NCBI GenBank assembly: GCA_964654205.1
Contig: CAZZHR010000002.1
Coordinates: 65,800-129,799, forward strand
Direction: 5' to 3'
From: an uncultured Candidatus Saccharibacteria bacterium
GTDB taxonomy: Bacteria > Patescibacteriota > Minisyncoccia > Phycocordibacterales > UBA2100
DNA: 64,000 bases
Shown here: positions 1,959-30,854 of the stretch, piece after piece
How the letters are laid out: every line of letters starts with the position of its first letter
Numbering within the stretch: position 1 is the stretch's first letter
The notes under the pieces: generated by a model
The model's database searches: none
The model's input: the letters and a program-made list of their open reading frames with translations, nothing else
Told to the model about the DNA's origin: nothing
Program-made: the position numbers and the translations under genes

Positions 1959-1992
1959 GTACCGATTCCTATCTATAGATAGGAATCGGTAC
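1959..1992. repeat. 34-bp perfect palindrome gtaccgattcctatcta|tagataggaatcggtac
   Basis: Read directly. The two 17-bp arms are exact reverse complements. It lies in the convergent intergenic region between the hydrolase and tktC. Confidence 0.85.
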
Positions 1993-13100: not shown

Positions 13101-14242
13101 GTGAACGCTGTGGAAGTTGCAACCCCGACGAGATAAAAATTACTGCCACTACTCTGTGCACCAGCTGTCACTTCCCAATACCATTTACCACTCGTGACAC
13201 CAATAATTGAGAGTGCCGTAAGAAAATTCCCAGCACTATGAGTCATACTCAAGTTGCCTTGAGAAAGAGTCAGCGAAGAGTTTTTGTAAATCGAGTTAAG
13301 TGTCGCAAACGCGTTCGTCGGGGTGTCGATGACTTGGTCGGTTGCGTCGAGGTTGTTGGCGGTCCAGTTGTTGCCGTTGCCGGATGTGTCGGTGCCAAGC
13401 GCCGCACTGTTGCCAAAGGCGAGCTTGAAGCCATTTGTCCCATACGTGCCCGTGTACGACTTCGGCCGCCAGTATCCATTGGCGTCGTACTCGCCGAAAG
13501 AGGTGGGCGTGAGCGCCTGCCCGTCGACAAAATGTAGGTCGGAGAGGTAGACATCAATCGAGCAACATGCACCCCCTTGTTGCTGACCGATACGATTGTT
13601 CGCATTGGCGAGCGCGAATTGGTACTCAGCGTTTTGTGCGGGATAATTCGCAGCGTCAAACGCCGTAATCTGCATCCCATCGATGTACATCTTCACTCTA
13701 TTCGCTGCAGTCGCATCTGTCGTGTCCCACACAACTACGACATGCATCCATTTTGATGGATCGCGAAAAAGTGCCGAGCTGCGAAGTTCGGCGGAAGTAG
13801 CCCCGCCGAAGGCGAAACTCAGGTTGTCCGCTGCAGCGCCGCCCGCCCCGAATTCAAGCCACGAAGAATTGCTCGACGAACCATCGTAGCCGGCAACTAT
13901 CGTTTGTCTCGTCCCCAAATTCCCCCTTTTTATCCACGTAGATATCGTTCCCTTCTTACGGTCAGCGGGTGCACCGGAGAATGTCTTGCTTAGGTTTGCA
14001 CTGTCATCGTCGTTGAAGCGAGCGCTGTTCGCGATCGTGTACGCCGCCTCCGCCTGCGGGAGTGTGAGAAGCGCAAACTGCGCGCCAAACCACGCCAGCG
14101 CGACAATCGCCGCCACAACCACCCGCCACCTCCACAGCCCGTTCAAAGCGTTCAAGGAGGCGTGCAAGGGGCGCCCTTGCACATGTGCAAGGGCGCCCCT
14201 TGCGCCGGAGATTTTGAGAAACTTGGTGAAGAGATTACTCAT
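10115..14242 (-). CDS. Giant (about 1375 aa) secreted multi-domain protein: LamG-like – SPRY/B30.2 – six ~45-aa tandem repeats – LamG-like
   Basis: N-terminal hydrophobic signal/anchor. SPRY signature 'SGKWYWEVT...NDVVGVALDLDNKKIYFSKNG'. Two concanavalin-A-like (LamG) segments. Six tandem repeats 'LRAYDFDGTNW.LTGNELNISG'. The first ~15 codons overlap the REP-like palindrome, so the true start may be an alternative codon downstream. Confidence 0.75.
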   Translation of the reverse strand: MSNLFTKFLKISGARGALAHVQGRPLHASLNALNGLWRWRVVVAAIVALAWFGAQFALLTLPQAEAAYTIANSARFNDDDSANLSKTFSGAPADRKKGTISTWIKRGNLGTRQTIVAGYDGSSSNSSWLEFGAGGAAADNLSFAFGGATSAELRSSALFRDPSKWMHVVVVWDTTDATAANRVKMYIDGMQITAFDAANYPAQNAEYQFALANANNRIGQQQGGACCSIDVYLSDLHFVDGQALTPTSFGEYDANGYWRPKSYTGTYGTNGFKLAFGNSAALGTDTSGNGNNWTANNLDATDQVIDTPTNAFATLNSIYKNSSLTLSQGNLSMTHSAGNFLTALSIIGVTSGKWYWEVTAGAQSSGSNFYLVGVATSTAFTPMTLGAFPGGSSANGGISYYGHDGTTYNGGTNAAYGNTFTTNDVVGVALDLDNKKIYFSKNGTWQNSGDPVGGTGAAATLSGADPVFPSLAVYTGASASINFGQPGTTTTTHYSAAGGYFRYEPPSGFKALSTANLPEPDVVVPKNYFDAIAYAGTGAAKSVYQTGTSTTVTGFSPDLVWIKNRTDASTNHALFDALRGVQAWLSSNLTAGEDVDDTESLTSYDDNGFSLGSGASSANVNTSGKNYISWLWKETAEAGFDIVSYKGTGKSRTVSHSLGKAPDFMLVKEVRGDWAQTSNSLTISGINTPALAALSATRVAYVDFGNASLRAYDLSSSNWSLTGSGLSISGIGSPSLATMLSSRVAFIDSGNDDLRAYDFNGSTWSLTGNELNISGVGSPALAGLLSDRIAFIDGTNDDLRAYDFDGTNWTLTGNELNISGITLPSLAALSASRVALYDYSGTKQLRAYDFDGTNWSQVGNSLTIESSGGSTGMAALGRNRVAFVDSTTNELRVYAFDGTDWREVADGSGIVDGTTPNPAVAALSATSVAIADQGSAMLRSYTQASGSGDWAVYHSSNTSAPATDYLLLNSTAATADDATYWNDTAPTASAFTVGTNADVNKGGAAHFDGTNDYLTRGANLTDVVDGKRLTVSFWVNITGADSTNQTIAATGDLGTGFYIVRTAGTQVIQVVGLDASNNFDMILNSSTQTLASSGWVHYLFSVDLNTGSAWVYRNDVSDFNSGGSTLTNDTIDWTRGNFAVGAEPDAGFKLTGDIKDLWIKFGTSLDLSVEANRRFFIDANGEPVPVIGVGSTLVPDVYFSGTSDNWHINRGRGGAFTENGALTDSSSTPGGVGGGSEYAAYLFASTTGMSAFGSYTGNGSTDGPFVYTGFKPRFVMLKPAVGTTGSWWMLDTTRNTYNPISGVLGADGSSQESAPADVIDSLANGFKLRTTFLNTSGDTMVYAAFAEQPFKYSAAPAATSNSFVQALALMLGMEI
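11540..12250. repeat. Intragenic tandem DNA repeats, period ~135-138 bp (5-6 units)
   Basis: Recurring strings 'gtgccgtcgaaatcatacgcgcgca(g/a)' at about 11685, 11823, 11960 and 12095, encoding the 45-aa protein repeats. Confidence 0.65.
14164..14203. repeat. 40-bp perfect REP-like palindrome gcaaggggcgcccttgcaca|tgtgcaagggcgccccttgc
   Basis: Arms verified base by base. It sits 3' of the transposase gene and overlaps the annotated 5' end of the giant LamG/SPRY ORF. Confidence 0.8.
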
Positions 14243-14901
14243 ACTTCGTCGAGCATTAATTCTCGGACTGTCGATTTCCGTGCGACGATGTCGTCGAAAG
14301 CGTCTTCAACGAAACGCTGGTACTCGCGCGCACTCTTGAAGTGCTCAAGGATTGTTGCCGTATCACACAATCCCCCGGTATCTGGCGAGAGGTACTCGGC
14401 ATAGCTACTATGCGGCCACTTTCGAGCGTCTCGCACAAGCTTCGCCACTTGGGGATTCACATGAATATAGGCCGAGAGGTGTTTGAGTTGCGTATCGTCT
14501 ACCACATGCACGGCCTTGATGCGATCCTGAAATACATGTCCCACATGATCGTACTTGCGATTGAAGTACATCGAGTAGCTCGTCAGTAGTTTCAGAAAAA
14601 GTTTACTAATCGATACATCTTTGTTCTGTCGTATGAGAAAATGGAAATGATTAGGCATAAGACAGTACACAGCAATCGAGAATGCATCTCTTTCGAATGG
14701 CTCGATGCGAATCTGGACGCGCTTCCCGCCGGTGTGCAAGGGCGCCCCTTGCACATCGCGACCGAGAGAGCGCATAAGTCGGTCTAGGAAAACTCGTGCA
14801 TCCTCATCATCTCGAAGGATGTCCATCTTGCCATTGCCGCGGCTGAAGAGGTGGTACCACTCTCCTGTCGAGAACTCTTTGTAGTCGCGTGAATTTGTCA
14901 T
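14239..14901 (-). CDS. tnpA: IS200/IS605-family Y1 HUH transposase (RAYT-like, Y1_Tnp)
   Basis: 'YHLFSRGNGK', HUH motif 'MPNHFHFLI', and C-terminal 'FQDRIKAVHVVDDTQLKHLSAYIHVNP...WPHSSY', the Y1 transposase signature. It carries a ~21-aa in-frame insertion encoded by the REP half-site. Confidence 0.65.
   Translation of the reverse strand: MTNSRDYKEFSTGEWYHLFSRGNGKMDILRDDEDARVFLDRLMRSLGRDVQGAPLHTGGKRVQIRIEPFERDAFSIAVYCLMPNHFHFLIRQNKDVSISKLFLKLLTSYSMYFNRKYDHVGHVFQDRIKAVHVVDDTQLKHLSAYIHVNPQVAKLVRDARKWPHSSYAEYLSPDTGGLCDTATILEHFKSAREYQRFVEDAFDDIVARKSTVRELMLDEV
14731..14756. repeat. Half-copy of the REP-like element (ggtgtgcaagggcgccccttgcacat) inside the transposase CDS
   Basis: Identical to one arm plus the centre of the 14164..14203 palindrome. 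It encodes 'RDVQGAPLHTGG' in frame. Confidence 0.75.
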
Positions 14902-24625: not shown

Positions 24626-27151
24626 CTACACGACAATGCGCCACCCGTCTGCGAGTAGGGGCTCGGCCTTCTTAAATTTCATTTCCTTGGTCTCAGTGCC
24701 ATTCGTAATAATGACTTTGTCGTTGCGACGGTATTCTTTCTTGCCCGCAATGGGCGCTTGTGCGGTGATACTCCGCGCCGCTCGCGATACCGCTTGTTCC
24801 CCCGCCGTCGCCGTGTGCACTCGCGGCGCCGCTCCGATATGTGGAATTAGTGTTCGTACGTGCGCAGCATACGTCTCCTCTAGCTGCTGGAAAAGCCTGC
24901 GACCTTCTTTTTTGTACTCGACGAGCGGATCGCGCTGTCCGTATGCGCGGAGATTCACGCTCGAGCGCAGGTACTCCATAGCTTCGAGATGCTCCACCCA
25001 GAGAAAGTCGATGCCCTGTAAGAGTATGCGGCGCACCGTCGGGACAAACGCATCCGTAAGCTCCTCTTTCTTTTTCTGTATAGCTTGAGCAAGAGCCTCA
25101 TCAGAGAGCGCGAGCCGCTCGAGCTCAGCCAGTACCGCCCCCTCTCCACCCGTCAGGAGGTCACGGCGACGTGTGTAGATGCTCTTGCGCTGGATGTTGA
25201 GCACATCGTCGTATGCGAGCACATGCTTGCGTGAGTCGAAGTGTATCTCCTCTATTCGCGTCTGCGCCTTCTCGAGCGAGCGCGTGATCATTTTGTTGAA
25301 TATCGGCTCGTCCTCGGGAATATTGAAGCTCCCCATCACCCGCTTGATGACGTCGCTCGCAAAAACGCGCATGAGACTGTCCTCAAGCGAAACGTAGAAC
25401 TGTGTCGCACCCGGGTCCCCTTGTCGGCCTGAGCGGCCACGCAGCTGGTTGTCGATGCGGCGCGCTTCGTGGCGCTCGGTGCCGAGCACAAAGAGGCCGC
25501 CGAGACTTTTTACTTCCTCGTAACTCTCCGGTGTCCCTGGATTGCCGCCGAGCTTAATGTCGACGCCTCGGCCGGCCATGTTGGTCGCGATGGTTACCGC
25601 GCCCTTCTTCCCGGCTTGCGCGACGATCTCACCCTCGCGCTCGTGATTCTTTGCGTTGAGCACTTCGTGCGGGATGCCCTCTTGCTTGAAGTACACCGAG
25701 AGCAGCTCGTTCTTTTCCACCGATACGGTACCGATGAGGACGGGCTGCCCCTTCTCGTGCAGCTCGCGCACGCGCTTCGCTATGGCTTTCATCTTGCCGT
25801 TCTCGGTCTGCAGGATGAGGTCGTCGAGGTCTGTTCGCTGAACGGGCTTGTTGGTCGGCACACTCGCTACGTTCAGGCCATATACCTTGTAGAATTCTTC
25901 GGACGAAGTGGCTGCGGTACCCGTCATGCCCGCGAGCTTGTCGTAGAGGCGGAAATAATTCTGGAAAGTTATCGATGCGAAAGTACGGCTCTCCTGTTGG
26001 ACTGAGACACCCTCCTTTGCCTCTATGGCCTGGTGGAGGCCATCAGACCACCTGCGCCCTGGCTGCATGCGACCCGTGAACTCGTCGACAATGATGACAG
26101 TCCCATCTCGCACTACGTAGTCCTTGTCTCGCTCAAAGAGAGCTTTTGCTCTCACGGCGGTCTCGAGGTGATGCACCATCTTGATGCCAGCATCCGTATA
26201 TATATTGTCTATCCCGAGCGCTGCCTGCGCCTTCTCGATACCTGCATCGGTCATCGCTATCTGTTTGTGCTTTTCGTCTACGGTGAAGTCCTCCTCGCGA
26301 ACCATGCCGCGCGCAATCTGCGCGAATCGCCCGTAGAGCGATTCTGCCTGCGAGACGGGTGCCGAGATAATCAGTGGCGTGCGTGCCTCGTCGATGAGGA
26401 TGGAATCTATCTCGTCGACTATTGCGAACCGGTACCCGCCATCCTGCGGGACGCGCTGACGCAAACCTGCTGCCTCGTATTCAAGGTTGTCGCGGAGGTA
26501 GTCGAAGCCGAATTCATTGTTGGTACCGTAGGTGATGTCGGCGGCATATGCTTCCCCGCGCGTACACGGACGAAGGAAATCTCGCGCCACCTTGAAGCTA
26601 CCTTCTGTATCCTGCTGCGCCTCTTCCTCCGCCTTGAGTTCCGGCGGAACATGCGATGGATCGTATATAAATGACGACTCGTGGTTGAGCACTCCCACGG
26701 TGAGGCCGAGTGCATAGTATATTTGCCCCATCCATGCGCCATCGCGGCGCGAGAGGTAGTCGTTGACAGTGATGACATGTACGCCTTTGCCCTCGAGGGC
26801 GTTGAGGTACGCTGGGAGCGTCGCGACGAGTGTCTTGCCCTCGCCCGTGCGCATCTCTGCGATGCCACCCTGGTGGAGTATCATCCCACCGATGAGCTGC
26901 ACGTCGAAGTGACGTTGACCGAGCGTCCTGCGCGACGCCTCCCTCACCGCGGCAAATGCCTCAGGCGCGAGGCTATCAAGGGATTCCCCGCCCGAAATGC
27001 GGACCTTGAATTCCGCGCTCTTTCCCTTGAGCGCCTCGTCGGTGAGCGCCGTAAACGTGTCTTCAAGTGCATTGACAGCAGCCACAATAGGCTGCGCCTT
27101 GCGGAGCGCCGCGACATTGGTATCTCCGAAGAGTCCTTTCCAAAATGACAT
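24626..27151 (-). CDS. secA: Preprotein translocase ATPase SecA
   Basis: DEAD-motor motifs ('MRTGEGKTLVATL', 'VDEIDSILIDEARTPLIIS') and C-terminal domains. Start trimmed to 'MSFWKGLFG'. Confidence 0.9.
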   Translation of the reverse strand: MSFWKGLFGDTNVAALRKAQPIVAAVNALEDTFTALTDEALKGKSAEFKVRISGGESLDSLAPEAFAAVREASRRTLGQRHFDVQLIGGMILHQGGIAEMRTGEGKTLVATLPAYLNALEGKGVHVITVNDYLSRRDGAWMGQIYYALGLTVGVLNHESSFIYDPSHVPPELKAEEEAQQDTEGSFKVARDFLRPCTRGEAYAADITYGTNNEFGFDYLRDNLEYEAAGLRQRVPQDGGYRFAIVDEIDSILIDEARTPLIISAPVSQAESLYGRFAQIARGMVREEDFTVDEKHKQIAMTDAGIEKAQAALGIDNIYTDAGIKMVHHLETAVRAKALFERDKDYVVRDGTVIIVDEFTGRMQPGRRWSDGLHQAIEAKEGVSVQQESRTFASITFQNYFRLYDKLAGMTGTAATSSEEFYKVYGLNVASVPTNKPVQRTDLDDLILQTENGKMKAIAKRVRELHEKGQPVLIGTVSVEKNELLSVYFKQEGIPHEVLNAKNHEREGEIVAQAGKKGAVTIATNMAGRGVDIKLGGNPGTPESYEEVKSLGGLFVLGTERHEARRIDNQLRGRSGRQGDPGATQFYVSLEDSLMRVFASDVIKRVMGSFNIPEDEPIFNKMITRSLEKAQTRIEEIHFDSRKHVLAYDDVLNIQRKSIYTRRRDLLTGGEGAVLAELERLALSDEALAQAIQKKKEELTDAFVPTVRRILLQGIDFLWVEHLEAMEYLRSSVNLRAYGQRDPLVEYKKEGRRLFQQLEETYAAHVRTLIPHIGAAPRVHTATAGEQAVSRAARSITAQAPIAGKKEYRRNDKVIITNGTETKEMKFKKAEPLLADGWRIVV

Positions 27152-27194
27152 GGATACCCATCCTACCACTGTGCGACTTTTCAATCCATGAAAA

Positions 27195-27222
27195 GAAGAA
27201 GCCTCCTTTCGGAGGCTTCTTC
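27195..27222 (-). terminator. Strong intrinsic terminator (gaagaagcctcc-gaaa-ggaggcttcttc + UUUUC)
   Basis: 12-bp perfect stem and 4-nt loop. The minus-strand transcript continues with 'ttttcatgg'. It lies between the polylysine micro-ORF and secA. Confidence 0.65.
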
Positions 27223-27227
27223 GGGAC

Positions 27228-27298
27228 TACGCGCGCTTCTTGCGCTTCGTGGCCTTCTTTTTCTTGGCTGTCTTTTTCGCCTTCTTTTTCTTTGCCAT
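27228..27298 (-). CDS. Polylysine micro-ORF (23 aa: MAKKKKAKKTAKKKKATKRKKRA)
   Basis: ATG at 27298, TAG at 27228..27230, immediately followed by the terminator. About 74% Lys/Arg. No obvious SD sequence. Confidence 0.3.
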
Positions 27299-27758
27299 GG
27301 TCGTAAATATTTTGAGAGTATTAAACTCGACCTTCGCTTCGCGCGCGAAACGCTACAGCGTTTACATAATTATTGCACTCATGCATGTAAAGAAATGTTT
27401 TTTGAAAAAATTGTGTGGATAACTCTTTTATTTTTTAAAATGTATCTCTGATGTAGAAATCAGTTATATGAAATTACTTTCACAGGAAGATATTCAGTAC
27501 GTACTTGAGAAGACATTTCCTTCCGTACACTCCGCGTCGCTCGCCCATACGCAGAAACACCCTTCTGAGGGGTGTTTCTGAAAGACGCACAGCGGAGGAC
27601 GGGTGCGAGCTCCAAAAAAAGTGAAAGTCTTATGTGAGTGCCGCCGCCCTCCGCAATACGCCCTTTTAGTCCTACGACAAAGAGTAACACCCTGTCCTTG
27701 AGTGACAACCTCTATTCGTTGCACACTACTCAGATACGAGACTTGCGTATAATCAGCC

Positions 27759-27776
27759 ATGGCGGATTATAAACAA
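27759..27776. repeat. 18-bp direct repeat atggcggattataaacaa (copy 1, 3' of the PaaX/Cas2-like gene)
   Basis: Exact match to 28457..28474. Read on the minus strand it contains 'TTGTTTATAAT', a sigma70-like -10 element. Confidence 0.75.
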
Positions 27777-27786
27777 GCGCGTGAGC

Positions 27787-28437
27787 CTATCGTTCTCCCA
27801 AACCGAAGTGCACTCGCAAGGGTTTATCGTACTCGATTGCGTCCGCAATAATGTATCTCACCTCCGTTCGCAGCGATGCGTCTAGCTTCAGAAGCGTTAT
27901 GATTTCTTCACAATCATACGGGTGCACCCATACGCTGTTTTGCAATCGGTGAAAACCAAGTCTCTTTAATATTTCGCGTACACGATCTCGCGTAGAGCGC
28001 CGCGCATGCGGAATGTCGAATATCACGACTCGCCAACGTCCGTCCCATCGACGCGGCCTAGGTATTTCTACGGCCGAAAGCCGGATGCGTTCCGCATGTG
28101 ACTTTCCCCTCTCCGTCAGTATGGGGTAACGTTTGCCCGAGTGCCGCATAAACTCGACCATCCCTTTTTTCTTCAATCTCGAGAGTGTCTCCCGCAGCCT
28201 CTGCGTGGGCTGCGGGGGCAGGATTACATCAAGGTGTTCTCTTTTGATGAGCGCAGCGACTTTCGGCGCCATCACCGCTACCGTGAGAATTCCTCCGAGA
28301 GCGAGCGTACCTATCACAGCTCTTTCTATCGATCCGCGTCTCAACCGCAGACGAACTCCACTCTCCTGGGATACGCGCGATTCTTGCTCACGCCTCTTCT
28401 GGGTATTCTGTTTTTGCCGCATGAGTGCATTGTACAA
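27787..28437 (-). CDS. PaaX-like winged-helix regulator with C-terminal Cas2/VapD-like domain
   Basis: N-terminal 'RLRETLSRLKKKGMVEFMRHSGKRYPILTERGK' (PaaX-type wHTH, 'YxLTxxG'). C-terminal 'WRVVIFDIPHARRSTRDRVREILKRLGFHRLQNSVWVHPYDCEEI' matches the Cas2 core pattern (vvvYDI..rRR..v.k.L..yG.RvQnSVF). No cas1 or CRISPR nearby. Confidence 0.5.
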   Translation of the reverse strand: MYNALMRQKQNTQKRREQESRVSQESGVRLRLRRGSIERAVIGTLALGGILTVAVMAPKVAALIKREHLDVILPPQPTQRLRETLSRLKKKGMVEFMRHSGKRYPILTERGKSHAERIRLSAVEIPRPRRWDGRWRVVIFDIPHARRSTRDRVREILKRLGFHRLQNSVWVHPYDCEEIITLLKLDASLRTEVRYIIADAIEYDKPLRVHFGLGER

Positions 28438-28456
28438 ACTTGTTTATAACTCGCTA

Positions 28457-28474
28457 TGGCGGATTATAAACAAT
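28457..28474. promoter_or_regulatory. 18-bp direct repeat copy 2, 20 bp upstream of the 28437 start; putative promoter/operator
   Basis: Exact repeat. The minus strand reads 'ttgtttataatccgccat'. The adjacent 'tgtttataa' forms an inverted repeat with it. Confidence 0.5.
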
Positions 28475-28526
28475 TCAGGAATGTTCCCTTTAGTCCTGTT
28501 GTGCAGTGTGCATAAACTGAATACCG

Positions 28527-28546
28527 CCCTTTCGGGCGGTACTTCA
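28527..28546 (-). terminator. Hairpin ccgccc-tttc-gggcgg downstream of the O-antigen-ligase-like gene
   Basis: 6-bp GC stem. The minus strand is followed by 'tattcagtttatg'. Confidence 0.35.
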
Positions 28547-28622
28547 GCGACTTTCAATCTGCGAGCCACACTTTGTGGCACTCACGTATTCATTATATGT
28601 ACCGCGCAGCGACGCGCAAGTA

Positions 28623-30854
28623 CTAGAGTACTTCGGCCGTACCGGTACGTATCTGCTCAATGACAGGATCCGCCTGCTCTCCAATACCCGGGATAGCGCG
28701 CTTCGCTTCTTCGAGCGCCGCGATCGCCGCCGCGCGATTGCCGGAGAGGTAGTGTATCGCGGCAAGCGTGAAATAGAGCTGCGCATCCTGTGGATTTGCG
28801 CGGATGGCAGCTTCCCAAATCGGCACCGCGCGCACGAGCTGGTTGGTCGAGCGATACGCGGCGAGCACGCGCGAATCGGCCGCCTGGCCTTTCTCGACGT
28901 ATGGTGCGAGCACCTCTTCTCCCTCAGCCATCTGGCCGTTCAAAATGAGCCCAGAGCCGTAAAGCACGGCCGCAGTCGCGAATGACGCGTCGAGTTCGTG
29001 CGCCTGTTTGTAATACGAGAGCGCCGAGGCGGTATCGCCGCGCGCTATCGCGTTCTCCGCAAGCTGGAACATTATTGCCTGCTTTTTCGGAGAGTCTTCG
29101 AGCGCCCGTTCGTACGCTGCCTTCGCATCGTCGTGCAATCCATAGGCTCCATAGAGCACGCCGAGAAAGAGTGGAAAACGCGCATCCAGCGGCGACATGT
29201 CCTCCTGTTTCCGCATTTCCGATTCCGCGAGCGCAAAGAACTGCTGCTTCGTGGCCTCGGGTATGTCGAGCTGGCTCGCCTGTGCTGCCATTTGCGCGAG
29301 CTGCTCCCGGGCTTCCTGCATGCCAAATGTGCCGAGCTCAATCGACTGCCTCATGTACTCCAGATTCGTTGCAATCTGACCCTGCGGTGCGATCGCCTGG
29401 AGCAGAAGCCTGTTCGCAGCGAGCGGCTTTTGGTTGACACCCCATGCGAGGAAAAGCAGCGCGAGTGCACATGCGAGCGCGATGTACGGGATGTACGCAC
29501 GGTTGACTACTGCGCTCCAGAGCACTTTTGCTTCTTGCGCCTTACTGGCTCGATATGCGATAAACGCGAGCACCGTCCCAAAGAGGATGTAGCTTGTCAC
29601 GTTGTCGAAGACGAAGAAGTTGTGCACGAAGTAGCCCGCGAGGAGTCCCGTGAGTATCGAGCGCTCCGCTATCGAGAATCCATCCGGCCGTCCCGTCAAG
29701 ACACTTCGCCAGAGCGCGAATAGCGCAGCGAAGAATATCGAGAGATACGCGAGCAGGCCGAGCGTTCCCCCTGCGACCCACCAGTCGAAAATGATGTTGT
29801 GCACGCGGTCAAACCACGGCTCCTGGCTGTGCATGCGCGGGTCGTAGTACTTGTCGAAAACGAGCGCGTAATTCTCCTGACCCCAGCCCAAAATGGGCTT
29901 CTCCTGTACACCCTGCCATGCCATCTGCCAGTTGATGAATCGCGCCTTCGTCGTCGCGTCGTCGAGTGAGATGGTCGCAAGACGCTGGAGGAAGCCGATG
30001 CGCTGCACCCACGTCTGCTCTTTCACTAAGAAGAACCCGCCGATAATGACGAGGAGCCCTACCACCATCGCCGCCGACGCTCTCCATGCGTTGCGCGAAT
30101 TTTGAGCCTGCATGAGCACGAGCAGCGCGGAAAGGAGCGCGCCGCCGACGAGACCGAGAATCGCACCGCGCGTACCGGTGAGGAGAAGTGCGATGGTGTC
30201 GAGCACAATGATAGAGCCGTACATAAGCGAGATGCCGACGCGCTTTCCCTCGCCCCTTTCCACCCACTGCTGCGCCCAGAGCATCGCCGCGAGGAATATG
30301 TGGAACAGCATGTATGCAGCGAAGTAGATGGGGTTGCCGAATGTCGCGTCGATGCGGCCGCTCAGTCCCGCTGCTCCACCCTGACCGAGTGCAATCTGGC
30401 CGGTAACTTGGAAGAGGCCGTATATCGAGAGGTACGCCGAGACGCCGAGCGTCGTCCACCACAGCCACCGCCAGAGTTTCTCCGTCTGGAGCATCGAGGC
30501 TGCAACCACGGTGTAGACGAGGAGATGGGCAAGCGTCACCCACCCGTCCATGCGCTCGTAGTTGCTCCAGATGCTCTTAAAGGGGTATTCGCCGAAGATG
30601 TCGGCAAGCCCGATGATGGCAACAAATACAGCGAGTGCCGCGAGCACCCATGAGCGCCGGGGTCTATACGCGGGATTGACGAGTGCGAGCGCGAGCCACG
30701 CTGCCGCGCTTATCTCGACAACGATGCGAAAGGCGAAGTTTTTACCCGTGATGTAGGGGAAAAAGAGCGACGAAGTGACGAGGAGGCACACGAAGGGGAG
30801 CGCAAATACGCCAGCAAGGGCAATGAATCGGAGCGTCTTCTCAAGGACAGTCAT
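28623..30854 (-). CDS. O-antigen ligase/polymerase-like (Wzy_C) polytopic membrane protein with C-terminal TPR repeats
   Basis: About 12 TM helices plus a 'RFINWQMAWQGVQEKPILGWGQENYALVF' periplasmic loop typical of the WaaL/Wzy_C family. C-terminal ~250 aa of TPR-like repeats. Start trimmed to 'MTVLEKTL'. Confidence 0.7.
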   Translation of the reverse strand: MTVLEKTLRFIALAGVFALPFVCLLVTSSLFFPYITGKNFAFRIVVEISAAAWLALALVNPAYRPRRSWVLAALAVFVAIIGLADIFGEYPFKSIWSNYERMDGWVTLAHLLVYTVVAASMLQTEKLWRWLWWTTLGVSAYLSIYGLFQVTGQIALGQGGAAGLSGRIDATFGNPIYFAAYMLFHIFLAAMLWAQQWVERGEGKRVGISLMYGSIIVLDTIALLLTGTRGAILGLVGGALLSALLVLMQAQNSRNAWRASAAMVVGLLVIIGGFFLVKEQTWVQRIGFLQRLATISLDDATTKARFINWQMAWQGVQEKPILGWGQENYALVFDKYYDPRMHSQEPWFDRVHNIIFDWWVAGGTLGLLAYLSIFFAALFALWRSVLTGRPDGFSIAERSILTGLLAGYFVHNFFVFDNVTSYILFGTVLAFIAYRASKAQEAKVLWSAVVNRAYIPYIALACALALLFLAWGVNQKPLAANRLLLQAIAPQGQIATNLEYMRQSIELGTFGMQEAREQLAQMAAQASQLDIPEATKQQFFALAESEMRKQEDMSPLDARFPLFLGVLYGAYGLHDDAKAAYERALEDSPKKQAIMFQLAENAIARGDTASALSYYKQAHELDASFATAAVLYGSGLILNGQMAEGEEVLAPYVEKGQAADSRVLAAYRSTNQLVRAVPIWEAAIRANPQDAQLYFTLAAIHYLSGNRAAAIAALEEAKRAIPGIGEQADPVIEQIRTGTAEVL

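What the first reader, a model, noticed from the sequence alone, without database searches (positions are those of the whole stretch)
27759..28474. Orphan PaaX-like wHTH + Cas2/VapD-like protein flanked by exact 18-bp direct repeats carrying TATAAT boxes
The 216-aa protein combines a PaaX-type winged helix with a C-terminal segment matching the Cas2 core ('VVIFDIP..RR..R.RV...L...GF.RLQNSVW'). There is no cas1, no CRISPR array and no other cas gene within 64 kb. The gene is bracketed by identical 18-mers 'atggcggattataaacaa', one 20 bp upstream of its start and one just past its stop. Each reads on the coding strand as 'TTGTTTATAAT', a -10-like element. The island (27230-28620) is visibly AT-richer than its surroundings. 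It could be an autoregulated Cas2-like nuclease/regulator module, a toxin-like element, or a small mobile cassette.
Basis: partly seen in the sequence, partly recalled or inferred. Interest (0 to 1): 0.65.

Follow-up and report, generated by a model that had tools for sequence, protein, structure and literature searches.

The report
PaaX-like regulator bracketed by its palindromes
The gene encodes a short PaaX-type DNA-binding protein, often mislabelled "Cas2", from a large family in ultra-small Patescibacteria; in about 90% of the loci checked the gene sits between two copies of its own roughly 40-bp palindrome, and the whole unit is gained, lost or swapped between close relatives.

Summary
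An exact 18-mer occurs at 27759-27776 and 28456-28473. Each copy is half of a 34-bp imperfect palindrome (27743-27776, 28440-28473). The two palindromes bracket a 211-aa gene (27787-28422, minus strand).

The protein is a PaaX-type winged helix plus PF20803 PaaX_M, the Cas2-like central domain of PaaX (E=1.6e-21). It lacks PaaX_C. The window holds no cas1, no other cas gene and no CRISPR array.

It is not an orphan. At least 584 species-level Patescibacteria genomes encode relatives, many named "Cas2". In 78 of 86 loci the gene is flanked by the same lineage-specific 30-42-bp palindrome. The upstream copy ends about 17 nt before the start codon, the downstream copy begins about 20 nt after the stop, and both are enriched in TATAAT-like hexamers.

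In one related lineage the same palindrome also lies upstream of purA and an IMPDH-type gene. In the Wzy-SecA slot, three close relatives lack the gene (SecA 91, 84 and 79% identical). A fourth (89%) carries a 41%-identical allele with different palindromes.

Best reading: a self-contained, autoregulated PaaX-like repressor cassette that binds its flanking operators. The role of the downstream copy is unknown. A nuclease or mobile-element role is not excluded.

The parts
27787..28422 (-). Gene for a 211-aa protein (216 aa if the TTG at 28437 is used). It has an Arg/Lys-rich N-terminal tail, a PaaX-type winged helix (recognition helix about aa 72-85, wing 89-102), and a Cas2-like ferredoxin-fold PaaX_M domain (aa ~125-206). 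There is no PaaX_C domain.
   Evidence: ORF. P0001 is identical over 211 aa. PF20803 1.6e-21 and PF09827 2.8e-6. TIGR02277 scores 51 bits against a cut-off of 264, and TIGR01573 scores 31.7 against 24.5. AF2 model, pLDDT above 90 for aa 72-210. Foldseek hits: PaaX 8a39 9.6e-5, Rv0674 3kfw, then Cas2 structures.
28440..28473 (.). Upstream 34-bp palindrome. On the coding strand it reads TTGTTTATAATCCGCCATAGCGAGTTATAAACAA. It is the proposed operator overlapping the gene's promoter, and it ends 17 nt before the ATG.
   Evidence: Conserved in place in L001 and L004 with symmetric inner changes. A family-wide trait.
28463..28468 (-). TATAAT, a -10-like hexamer inside the left arm of the upstream palindrome.
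   Evidence: Read from the sequence. -10-like hexamers are enriched in these palindromes family-wide. The simple sigma-70 scan found no full -35/-10 promoter.
27743..27776 (.). Downstream 34-bp palindrome. On the coding strand it reads TTGTTTATAATCCGCCATGGCTGATTATACGCAA. It starts 10 nt after the stop codon and is the proposed second operator. Centre-to-centre distance to the upstream copy is 697 bp.
   Evidence: Conserved in place in L001 and L004. A family-wide trait.
27766..27771 (-). TATAAT, a -10-like hexamer inside the left arm of the downstream palindrome.
   Evidence: Read from the sequence. Enrichment statistics.
28456..28473 (+). Exact 18-mer ATGGCGGATTATAAACAA, the copy upstream of the gene. 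It is the right half of the upstream palindrome as written on the + strand.
27759..27776 (+). Exact 18-mer ATGGCGGATTATAAACAA, the copy just past the stop codon.

Best explanation
The gene encodes a truncated PaaX-family DNA-binding protein: a basic tail, a PaaX-type winged helix-turn-helix, and the Cas2-like PaaX_M domain. In PaaX this domain is the dimerisation module.

Inferred mechanism:
- A homodimer binds the two 34-bp palindromes that bracket the gene.
- The upstream palindrome carries the -10 box of the gene's own promoter and ends 17 nt before the start codon. Binding there would shut off transcription, giving negative autoregulation as PaaX does at Px.
- The downstream palindrome, 10 nt past the stop, is a second operator for the same protein. 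It may cooperate with the upstream site by looping the ~700-bp gene. It may instead act as a roadblock or insulator against read-through, or gate the promoter-like -10 it carries.

Shown here: the unit palindrome-gene-palindrome is self-contained, is found throughout a large Patescibacteria family with lineage-private palindromes, and behaves as an accessory module that is lost or exchanged as a whole.

In at least one related lineage the same palindrome also sits in front of purA and an IMPDH/GMP-reductase gene. So the protein can act as a transcription factor with targets beyond itself. Targets in this genome outside the window are unknown.

Shown: domain identity, the repeat architecture and its family-wide conservation, the extra sites, and the presence/absence pattern. 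Inferred: binding, repression, and the role of the downstream copy.
For: Domain and fold:
- PF20803 PaaX_M 1.6e-21. The partial PaaX equivalog alignment spans the helix, the wing and the Cas2-like domain.
- Best structural matches are PaaX 8a39 and Rv0674 3kfw.
- The family profile hits PaaX, AspA, MarR and TubR winged helices.

PaaX precedent: it binds TGATTC-N27-GAATCA (39 bp) and represses its own promoter Px (PMC9493321). The palindromes here are 34 bp, and the family median is 40 bp.

Family-wide bracket:
- In 78 of 86 loci the two flanks share a repeat above the 95% null. It is nearly always a 30-42-bp palindrome.
- It ends a median 17 nt before the start and begins a median 20 nt after the stop.
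- Paralogs within one genome carry different palindromes.

Promoter signal: hexamers matching TATAAT at 5 or 6 of 6 positions occur in 65% of upstream and 62% of downstream copies, against 17% of background windows.

DNA level rather than RNA level:
- Arm mismatches show no sense-strand wobble bias: 25 G.T against 24 A.C, with 69 others.
- Up and down copies keep the same sequence, not merely pairing potential.
- Close relatives L001 and L004 keep both sites in place, with symmetric inner changes (CGCCATGGCG to CACCATGGTG).

Extra targets: the palindrome of the L021/L176 lineage lies about 40 bp upstream of purA (L120, L149) and about 65 bp upstream of an IMPDH-type gene (L090, L146, L204), with no family gene nearby.
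Against: - No binding, transcription-start or expression data exist.
- The simple sigma-70 scan finds no complete promoter here.
- No classical model predicts the downstream copy. It is present whether the next gene is co-directional (41 loci) or convergent (29 loci), so its function is unexplained.
- purA upstream regions in four other Kaiserbacteria-type genomes carry no such palindrome. No second target is seen in the 64-kb window or within 3 kb in most loci. The regulon is therefore lineage-specific or very small.
- Near-perfect 38-bp palindromes at three loci are more uniform than typical operators and look more like copied elements.
- The cassette is absent from three close relatives: L213 (the closest, SecA 91% identical), L215 and L217. 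It is replaced by a 41%-identical allele in L214. That pattern is unusual for a regulator of core metabolism.
- The Cas2 catalytic Asp position (D136 in the numbering of the 216-aa ORF used; D131 in the 211-aa protein) aligns with the Cas2 Asp. The Asp of this FDI motif is invariant in 42 of 42 members, so catalysis cannot be excluded.
- The N-terminal 70 residues are modelled only at pLDDT about 60.
Confidence: 0.6

Rival explanations
1. A selfish or self-mobilising cassette. The wHTH targets a Cas2-fold nuclease to the palindromic ends. The protein nicks, cleaves or recombines them, by analogy with RAYT transposases flanked by their REP palindromes or with homing elements, so the unit spreads or replaces rivals. 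Solo palindromes elsewhere would be relics or target sites rather than operators.
For: - Presence/absence and in-situ replacement by a distant allele with private palindromes, among relatives whose SecA is 79-91% identical. L071 shows the same pattern.
- Two or three paralogs per genome, each with its own palindrome.
- Very long, near-perfect palindromes that are identical at both ends and at solo sites.
- The central CGACCG/CGGTCG is flipped between the two copies in several loci.
- The Asp at the Cas2 catalytic position is invariant.
Against: - No target-site duplication is visible, and no solo palindrome sits at the empty slots.
- Only two copies occur in 64 kb.
- Only one relative was found in 2.9 million viral contigs.
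- No transposase, integrase or HUH motif was detected.
- The type-A cassette is syntenic in the window, L001, L004 and L008, consistent with vertical descent plus loss.
- The two solo sites found are both promoter-proximal and both serve purine-interconversion genes.
- The closest characterised homolog is a repressor.
Confidence: 0.15
2. The palindromes act as RNA hairpins on the gene's own transcript, as a 5' leader structure and a 3' terminator or stabiliser. The Cas2/VapD-like domain would bind or cleave them, giving post-transcriptional autoregulation or a toxin-like RNase.
For: - Both palindromes fold as stable hairpins: -12.6 kcal/mol (z = -7.9) and -9.6 kcal/mol (z = -2.7).
- The downstream copy sits where a terminator would be, 10-20 nt after the stop.
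- Some Cas2 and VapD proteins are RNases (my own knowledge). Weak fold matches to Cas2 and VapD were found.
Against: - Arm mismatches show no excess of G.U-compatible pairs on the sense strand.
- No U-tract follows the hairpin.
- The two copies conserve sequence, not only pairing.
- With the -10 inside the left arm, the 5' copy would not be transcribed whole.
- The same palindrome occurs upstream of other genes.
- The protein carries a DNA-type winged helix.
Confidence: 0.07
3. A genuine CRISPR-associated Cas2, as many database records name the relatives, serving a CRISPR-Cas system encoded elsewhere.
For: TIGR01573 scores 31.7 bits against a cut-off of 24.5. PADLOC Cas2 models reach 4e-8. Public records use the name 'CRISPR-associated endonuclease Cas2'.
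Against: - The matches cover only positions 2-41 of Cas2 models that are about 90 positions long.
- PF20803 PaaX_M fits far better, 76.6 bits against 27.8.
- The domain is fused to a winged helix.
- The window has no cas1, no other cas gene and no array. Neighbourhoods of relatives have none either.
Confidence: 0.01
4. An ortholog of PaaX itself, the phenylacetyl-CoA-responsive repressor of phenylacetate catabolism.
For: Shared wHTH plus PaaX_M architecture, and a long spaced palindromic site.
Against: - TIGR02277 scores 51 bits against a cut-off of 264.55.
- The PaaX_C effector domain is absent: the protein ends at aa 211.
- No paa genes were seen in the window survey (first 25 families) or next to relatives.
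Confidence: 0.01

Closest known systems
PaaX, the phenylacetyl-CoA-responsive repressor of E. coli and Pseudomonas (PDB 8a39; Pfam PaaX, PaaX_M, PaaX_C)
   Same: N-terminal winged helix followed by the Cas2-like PaaX_M domain. PaaX binds a long spaced palindrome (TGATTC-N27-GAATCA, 39 bp) and represses its own promoter (PMC9493321). The sites here are 34-40 bp and overlap the presumed promoter.
   Different: The C-terminal effector domain is missing. The equivalog score is far below threshold. There are no phenylacetate genes. The protein retains Cas2-like motifs (FDI, LQNSVW) that PaaX has lost. The gene is bracketed by two copies of its site. The family is restricted to Patescibacteria.
Short PaaX-family proteins of unknown function, such as M. 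tuberculosis Rv0674 (PDB 3kfw)
   Same: Best sequence match among solved structures (E=0.018) and second-best fold match. Same helix-wing-RWDGxW-ferredoxin layout.
   Different: Rv0674 is 247 aa and keeps extra C-terminal sequence. It lacks the Asp of the FDI motif. Its sites and function are not known to me.
Cas2, the CRISPR adaptation protein
   Same: Ferredoxin-like fold. Conserved beta1-Asp and a Q.S.[FW] strand.
   Different: Only the first ~40 profile positions align. The domain is fused to a DNA-binding domain. There is no cas1 and no array. This is homology of a domain, not membership of the system.
Lrp/AsnC 'feast/famine' regulators (architectural analogy, from my own knowledge)
   Same: A winged helix plus a beta-alpha-beta-beta-alpha-beta domain that mediates oligomerisation. 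They are typically autoregulated, use several sites and wrap or loop DNA. Weak fold hits to 2dbb and ACT-like domains were found.
   Different: No detectable sequence relationship. The ligand pocket is not established here.
Lambda CI with OL and OR flanking the immunity region (analogy, from my own knowledge)
   Same: A repressor gene lies between two sets of its own operators, which cooperate by looping for tight autoregulation.
   Different: Unrelated protein family. Lambda has tripartite 17-bp operators 2.3 kb apart. Here single ~34-40-bp palindromes lie within 20 nt of the ORF ends.
RAYT transposase genes flanked by REP palindromes (analogy, from my own knowledge)
   Same: A single gene bracketed by two copies of its cognate palindrome. 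Each gene lineage has its own palindrome class.
   Different: No HUH/Y1 domain. No genome-wide swarm of copies is seen in 64 kb.

Membership tests
PaaX family (Pfam PaaX_M PF20803) | Central Cas2-like PaaX_M domain | tested here: met
   PF20803 E=1.6e-21, 76.6 bits against a cut-off of 24, covering profile positions 2-78 of 83. All listed relatives carry it.
PaaX family | N-terminal PaaX-type winged helix-turn-helix | tested here: inconclusive
   The recognition helix and wing align to PaaX and are modelled with pLDDT above 90. The first two helices (aa ~35-62) are only a low-confidence long hydrophobic helix. No Pfam PaaX N-terminal hit was returned.
PaaX proper (NCBIfam TIGR02277 equivalog) | Full-length match above the curated cut-off, including the C-terminal effector (PaaX_C) domain | tested here: not met
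   51 bits against a cut-off of 264.55. Only model positions 35-139 of 279 align. There is no PaaX_C hit.
PaaX proper | Control of phenylacetate catabolic genes in response to phenylacetyl-CoA | not testable with these tools
   No paa genes were seen next to the gene or its relatives. Ligand response needs experiments.
PaaX-like repressors (mode of action) | Dimer binds a long spaced palindrome overlapping its own promoter | not testable with these tools
   Geometry and position are consistent. Binding itself was not measured.
Cas2 (CRISPR adaptation) | Cas2 ferredoxin fold with the conserved beta1 Asp | tested here: met
   PF09827 2.8e-6. TIGR01573 above its cut-off. The Asp of the VIFDI motif (D136 in 216-aa ORF numbering) aligns with the Asp of VVYDV in 3exc. 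Foldseek hits to Cas2 have TM about 0.5-0.6 over about 70 residues. The match is partial, covering profile positions 2-41.
Cas2 (CRISPR adaptation) | Encoded with cas1 next to a CRISPR array | tested here: not met
   No array-like repeats in 64 kb. No Cas family other than the self-hit among 49 ORFs. No cas neighbours in relatives.
VapD / type II toxin-antitoxin | Two-gene operon with a partner antitoxin | tested here: not met
   The palindromes lie 17 and 10 nt from the ORF ends, leaving no room for a second gene. The VapD fold match is weak (6zi1, E=0.36).
RAYT/REP or IS200/IS605-type elements | HUH/Y1 transposase domain | tested here: not met
   No Y1_Tnp hit for this protein. A separate Y1_Tnp gene elsewhere in the window is detected by the same search type.
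RAYT/REP or IS200/IS605-type elements | Gene flanked by cognate palindromes that are also dispersed in many copies | tested here: inconclusive
   Flanking is met. Dispersal: none in the 64-kb window, but solo copies exist in a related lineage. Whole genomes could not be scanned.
Classical transposon or insertion sequence | Terminal inverted repeats plus target-site duplication, with a clean empty site in relatives | tested here: not met
   No duplication is visible outside the palindromes. The empty slots in L213, L215 and L217 show neither a solo palindrome nor clean junctions.

The most novel reading that the evidence does not exclude
The palindrome-gene-palindrome unit is an autonomous genetic element. 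A Cas2-fold nuclease fused to a winged helix recognises and acts on ~40-bp palindromic repeats that delimit its own gene. That makes a repeat-insert-repeat unit built around a Cas2 homolog. It could represent a previously unseen kind of selfish module in Patescibacteria, and possibly a relative of the ancestor from which CRISPR adaptation recruited Cas2 and repeat recognition.
Probability: 0.05. Interest if true: 0.85.

Novelty: new variant of a known kind. Interest (0 to 1): 0.5.

Why it matters
Almost nothing is known about gene regulation in Patescibacteria (the candidate phyla radiation).

This work defines a large, phylum-restricted family of short PaaX-like proteins: 781 clusters at 50% identity with E of 1e-30 or better, present in at least 584 species-level genomes. 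Each member comes with a directly readable candidate binding site, because the gene is bracketed by it. That gives testable protein-DNA pairs for hundreds of uncultured organisms.

It also offers a first hint of a regulon, purA and an IMPDH-type gene, in organisms that depend on nucleotide salvage.

It exposes a systematic misannotation. These proteins are named 'CRISPR-associated endonuclease Cas2' because they pass the TIGR01573 cut-off, which inflates apparent CRISPR content in these genomes.

Finally, the bracket of two identical operators, together with the loss and replacement of the whole unit between near relatives, is an unusual behaviour for a transcription factor and raises the question of what maintains it.

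Tried and rejected
- Known RNA families: Rfam at gathering threshold on the whole window and at E of 1 or less on 27100-28700 gave nothing meaningful. No tRNA or tmRNA was found.
- Phage origin: one distant relative in IMG/VR and only weak PHROG hits.
- Defence-system membership: PADLOC gave only partial Cas2 hits.
- Foreign composition of the gene: GC 0.535 and GC3 0.561 lie within the window's range.
- 'The downstream palindrome is just the next gene's operator': rejected, because 29 of 70 loci have a convergent neighbour.
- RNA-hairpin selection: no wobble bias.
- A fixed polarity of the two copies: the central GACC/GGTC is sometimes the same and sometimes flipped, so there is no consistent rule.
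- A general purA regulon: four other purA loci lack any such palindrome. purA and IMPDH genes are absent from the window and from all family loci.
- Third copies near the gene: found in only about 3 of 86 loci.
- Clean empty site, target duplication or solo palindrome in relatives lacking the gene: not found.
- N-terminal hydrophobic stretch (aa ~37-60) as a transmembrane helix: considered, but it aligns in position with the hydrophobic helices 1-2 of the PaaX winged helix. This is unresolved because the model is low-confidence there.
- The metagenome scan with the arm pattern returned mostly chance AT-rich hits. Only about a dozen of 120 were true-type sites.
Full report
**What is in the sequence**

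The 18-mer ATGGCGGATTATAAACAA is exact at 27759-27776 and 28456-28473. Shuffled sequence gives 0.02 matches even with three mismatches allowed. The same search shows an inverted partner overlapping each copy. The real units are therefore two 34-bp imperfect palindromes, 27743-27776 and 28440-28473.

On the coding (minus) strand they read TTGTTTATAATCCGCCATAGCGAGTTATAAACAA (upstream) and TTGTTTATAATCCGCCATGGCTGATTATACGCAA (downstream). Each contains TATAAT in its left arm. No other site with these arms exists in the 64 kb.

The gene between them is 27787-28437 (216 aa) from a TTG start. The public gene call, identical in sequence, starts at ATG 28422 and gives 211 aa (P0001). With that start the upstream palindrome ends 17 nt before the ATG and the downstream one begins 10 nt after the stop.

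The low-GC 'island' is real for 27230-28620: 0.487 against 0.559, the 0.3rd percentile. It is caused by the noncoding DNA at 27250-27550. The gene body is 0.535 and unremarkable.

**What the protein is**

Pfam assigns aa 129-205 to PF20803, 'PaaX protein central Cas2-like domain' (E=1.6e-21). The Cas2 model itself hits weakly (2.8e-6).

NCBIfam aligns aa 79-185 to the PaaX equivalog, at 51 bits against a cut-off of 264. The cas2 model scores 31.7 against its cut-off of 24.5. That explains why many public records call the relatives 'CRISPR-associated endonuclease Cas2'. PADLOC Cas2 models match only their first ~40 positions.

An AlphaFold model built on 42 family members is confident for aa 72-210. 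It shows a recognition helix, a beta-hairpin wing, a linker helix and a beta-alpha-beta-beta-alpha-beta fold. Its best structural matches are E. coli PaaX (8a39, 9.6e-5) and Rv0674 (3kfw), then a series of Cas2 structures over about 70 residues. The family profile also touches the AspA, MarR and TubR winged helices.

The protein ends where PaaX_M ends, so the C-terminal effector domain of PaaX is absent.

Unlike PaaX, the family keeps Cas2-like motifs. These include an invariant Asp at the Cas2 catalytic position (D136 in the numbering of the 216-aa ORF; D131 in the 211-aa protein) and the motif LQNSVW.

**No CRISPR context**

The window has no array-like repeat family. Among 49 ORFs of at least 100 aa, the only Cas hits in PADLOC come from this protein itself. 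Neighbourhoods of relatives show no cas genes either.

**The family, and the key result**

Relatives are numerous and confined to Patescibacteria (Kaiserbacteria, Nomurabacteria, Adlerbacteria, Taylorbacteria, Paceibacterota and others):
- 203 close hits.
- At least 584 loci in species-representative genomes.
- 781 clusters at 50% identity with E of 1e-30 or better, nearly all 180-215 aa.
- Some genomes hold two or three paralogs.

I compared the 250 bp before the start with the 250 bp after the stop in 86 loci. In 78 of them the two flanks share a repeat scoring above the 95th percentile of a null built from mismatched locus pairs. The shared element is almost always a palindrome of 30-42 bp, median 40. 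It ends a median 17 nt before the start codon and begins a median 20 nt after the stop.

The arms differ completely between lineages, and between paralogs of one genome. Examples are TTGTTTATAA, TTACTTTCTTA, ATACGTTATAAT and GGAACAATTTGTTG. The centre is usually CGRYCG, CTATAG or CCATGG.

In the window's nearest cassette relatives, L001 and L004 (65-67% protein identity), both palindromes are in the same places. Their outer arms are unchanged and their inner changes are symmetric (CGCCATGGCG to CACCATGGTG). The bracket is therefore a defining trait of the family, not a peculiarity of this window.

**DNA sites or RNA hairpins?**

The palindromes fold well as RNA, but three observations point to duplex DNA read by a protein:
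- The two copies conserve sequence, not just pairing.
- Mismatches in the arms show no preference for G.U-compatible pairs on the sense strand: 25 against 24 A.C, with 69 others.
- There is no U-tract.

Both copies are enriched in -10-like hexamers. Matches to TATAAT at 5 or 6 of 6 positions occur in 65% and 62% of copies against 17% of background windows. Perfect TATAAT occurs in 16/68 and 12/68 copies against 3/249 windows.

The size fits the one characterised relative. PaaX binds TGATTC-N27-GAATCA, 39 bp in all, and represses its own promoter (PMC9493321).

**Targets beyond itself**

A metagenome scan for the arm pattern gave mostly chance AT-rich hits. It also recovered the exact palindrome of the L021/L176 lineage, cacTTGTTTATAAGTCCCG(AC/AT/GT)CGGGACTTATAAACAAgtg, at three kinds of place:
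- In front of a family gene (L176).
- About 40 bp upstream of adenylosuccinate synthetase (L120, L149; PF00709, 5e-81).
- About 65 bp upstream of an IMP dehydrogenase/GMP reductase gene (L090, L146, L204; PF00478, 7.6e-124).

The last two have no family gene within several kb. Two promoter-proximal solo sites at the two branches from IMP argue for a small regulon in that lineage.

The finding does not generalise. Four other Kaiserbacteria-type purA loci have no such site. The window contains neither gene nor any further site. Extra copies within 3 kb of the family gene are rare.

**The downstream copy**

It is not simply the operator of the next gene. Among loci with the bracket, the downstream neighbour is co-directional in 41 and convergent in 29. 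Its role remains inferred: a looping partner, a roadblock or insulator, or a gated promoter.

In the window it lies about 80 nt upstream of a conserved structured-RNA candidate on the same strand, so there it could also act as that RNA's promoter-operator.

**Cassette behaviour**

By SecA identity the database holds much closer relatives of this organism (91, 89, 84 and 79%) than the best family homolog of the protein (66-67%) would suggest.

| Locus | SecA identity | Wzy-SecA slot |
|---|---|---|
| L213 | 91% | No family gene, no operator-type palindrome |
| L214 | 89% | 191-aa member, 41% identical to the window protein, with different palindromes (TCCCAT...ATGGGA arms) |
| L215 | 84% | No family gene, no operator-type palindrome |
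| L217 | 79% | No family gene called between Wzy and SecA (palindromes not checked) |
| L071 | 71% | A third, still different cassette |

The flanking noncoding blocks stay conserved throughout.

The window's type-A cassette is shared with L001, L004 and L008 in the same slot. The simplest history is vertical descent with repeated loss and occasional replacement of the whole palindrome-gene-palindrome unit. I found no target duplication, and no solo palindrome or clean junction at the empty sites. The means of exchange is open: homologous recombination through the conserved flanks is enough, and self-mobilisation is not shown.

**Verdict**

Most likely (0.6) this is a self-contained, autoregulated PaaX-like repressor. 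Its dimer binds the two palindromes that bracket its gene. It is a new variant of a known kind and belongs to a large Patescibacteria family that is systematically mislabelled Cas2.

The main rival (0.15) is that the Cas2-fold domain is catalytically active on the palindromes and the unit is a selfish element. The invariant Asp, the near-perfect long repeats and the gain/loss pattern keep that alternative alive.

An RNA-level role (0.07), a true Cas2 (0.01) and a true PaaX (0.01) are unlikely.

I found no paper describing this family or its bracket in the searchable library.

Noticed in passing
window 27583-27668 (-): A conserved ~85-nt hairpin lies between the downstream palindrome and the tiny Lys-rich ORF. 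Its energy is -39 kcal/mol (z = -4.4). RNAalifold on 4 sequences gives 30 pairs, 7 with compensatory changes. There is no Rfam match. It is present wherever the SecA synteny holds (L001-L005, L071, L188, L214). It is inverted in L213 and multi-copy in L004 and L215. It is a candidate new small RNA or a cis-element of the secA region.
   Followed up: partly
window 28505-28595 (-): A conserved block sits just after the Wzy/TPR gene. It contains GTGAGTGCC, a hairpin, TTGAAAGTC and a terminator-like hairpin. The two boxes are exact complements of GGCACUCAC and GACUUUCA in the apical part of the hairpin RNA candidate, so the two elements could pair. The box ATGAGTGC also recurs at ~28420 and ~27385.
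   Followed up: partly
window 27227-27298 (-): A tiny Lys/Arg-rich ORF (MAKKKKKAKKTAKKKKATKRKKRA) is followed by a strong terminator hairpin at 27195-27222. It is conserved upstream of secA in L001, L004, L213, L214 and L215, and is longer in L071. Its function is unknown.
   Followed up: no
window 27414-27422 (-): A perfect DnaA-box-like nonamer TTATCCACA lies in the AT-rich spacer. It is conserved in L001, L004, L213, L214 and L215. It is a single box, and the GC skew shows no turn here.
   Followed up: no
window 14164-14203 and 14239-14901 (-): A 40-bp perfect palindrome (GCAAGGGGCGCCCTTGCACATGTGCAAGGGCGCCCCTTGC) abuts a 220-aa Y1_Tnp (IS200-like or RAYT-like) gene (PF01797, 4.1e-9). This is a separate transposase-plus-palindrome pairing. 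A Y1_Tnp gene also sits next to secA in L217.
   Followed up: partly
window 1959-1992: A 34-bp perfect palindrome (GTACCGATTCCTATCTATAGATAGGAATCGGTAC) has the same size and CTATAG centre as operators of other family members. It lies between a PfkB-kinase region and the transketolase genes. It could be the site of a paralog encoded outside the window, or a bidirectional terminator.
   Followed up: no
L120 7526-7559, L149 1869-1902, L090 3425-3458, L146 3427-3460, L204 593-626: Solo copies of one lineage's 38-bp palindrome lie upstream of purA and of an IMPDH/GMP-reductase gene. They hint that family members regulate purine nucleotide interconversion in some Patescibacteria.
   Followed up: partly
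family-wide (P0008, P0011, P0012, P0019, P0032 and others): Public annotation names these wHTH-PaaX_M proteins 'CRISPR-associated endonuclease Cas2' because they exceed the TIGR01573 cut-off through a partial match. This is probably a systematic misannotation in Patescibacteria genomes.
   Followed up: yes
window, ORFs not located: One window protein each matches the PADLOC models mad8 (1.4e-16), mad2 (1e-8) and HerA (1.6e-7). This may be a defence-related gene set elsewhere in the window.
   Followed up: no
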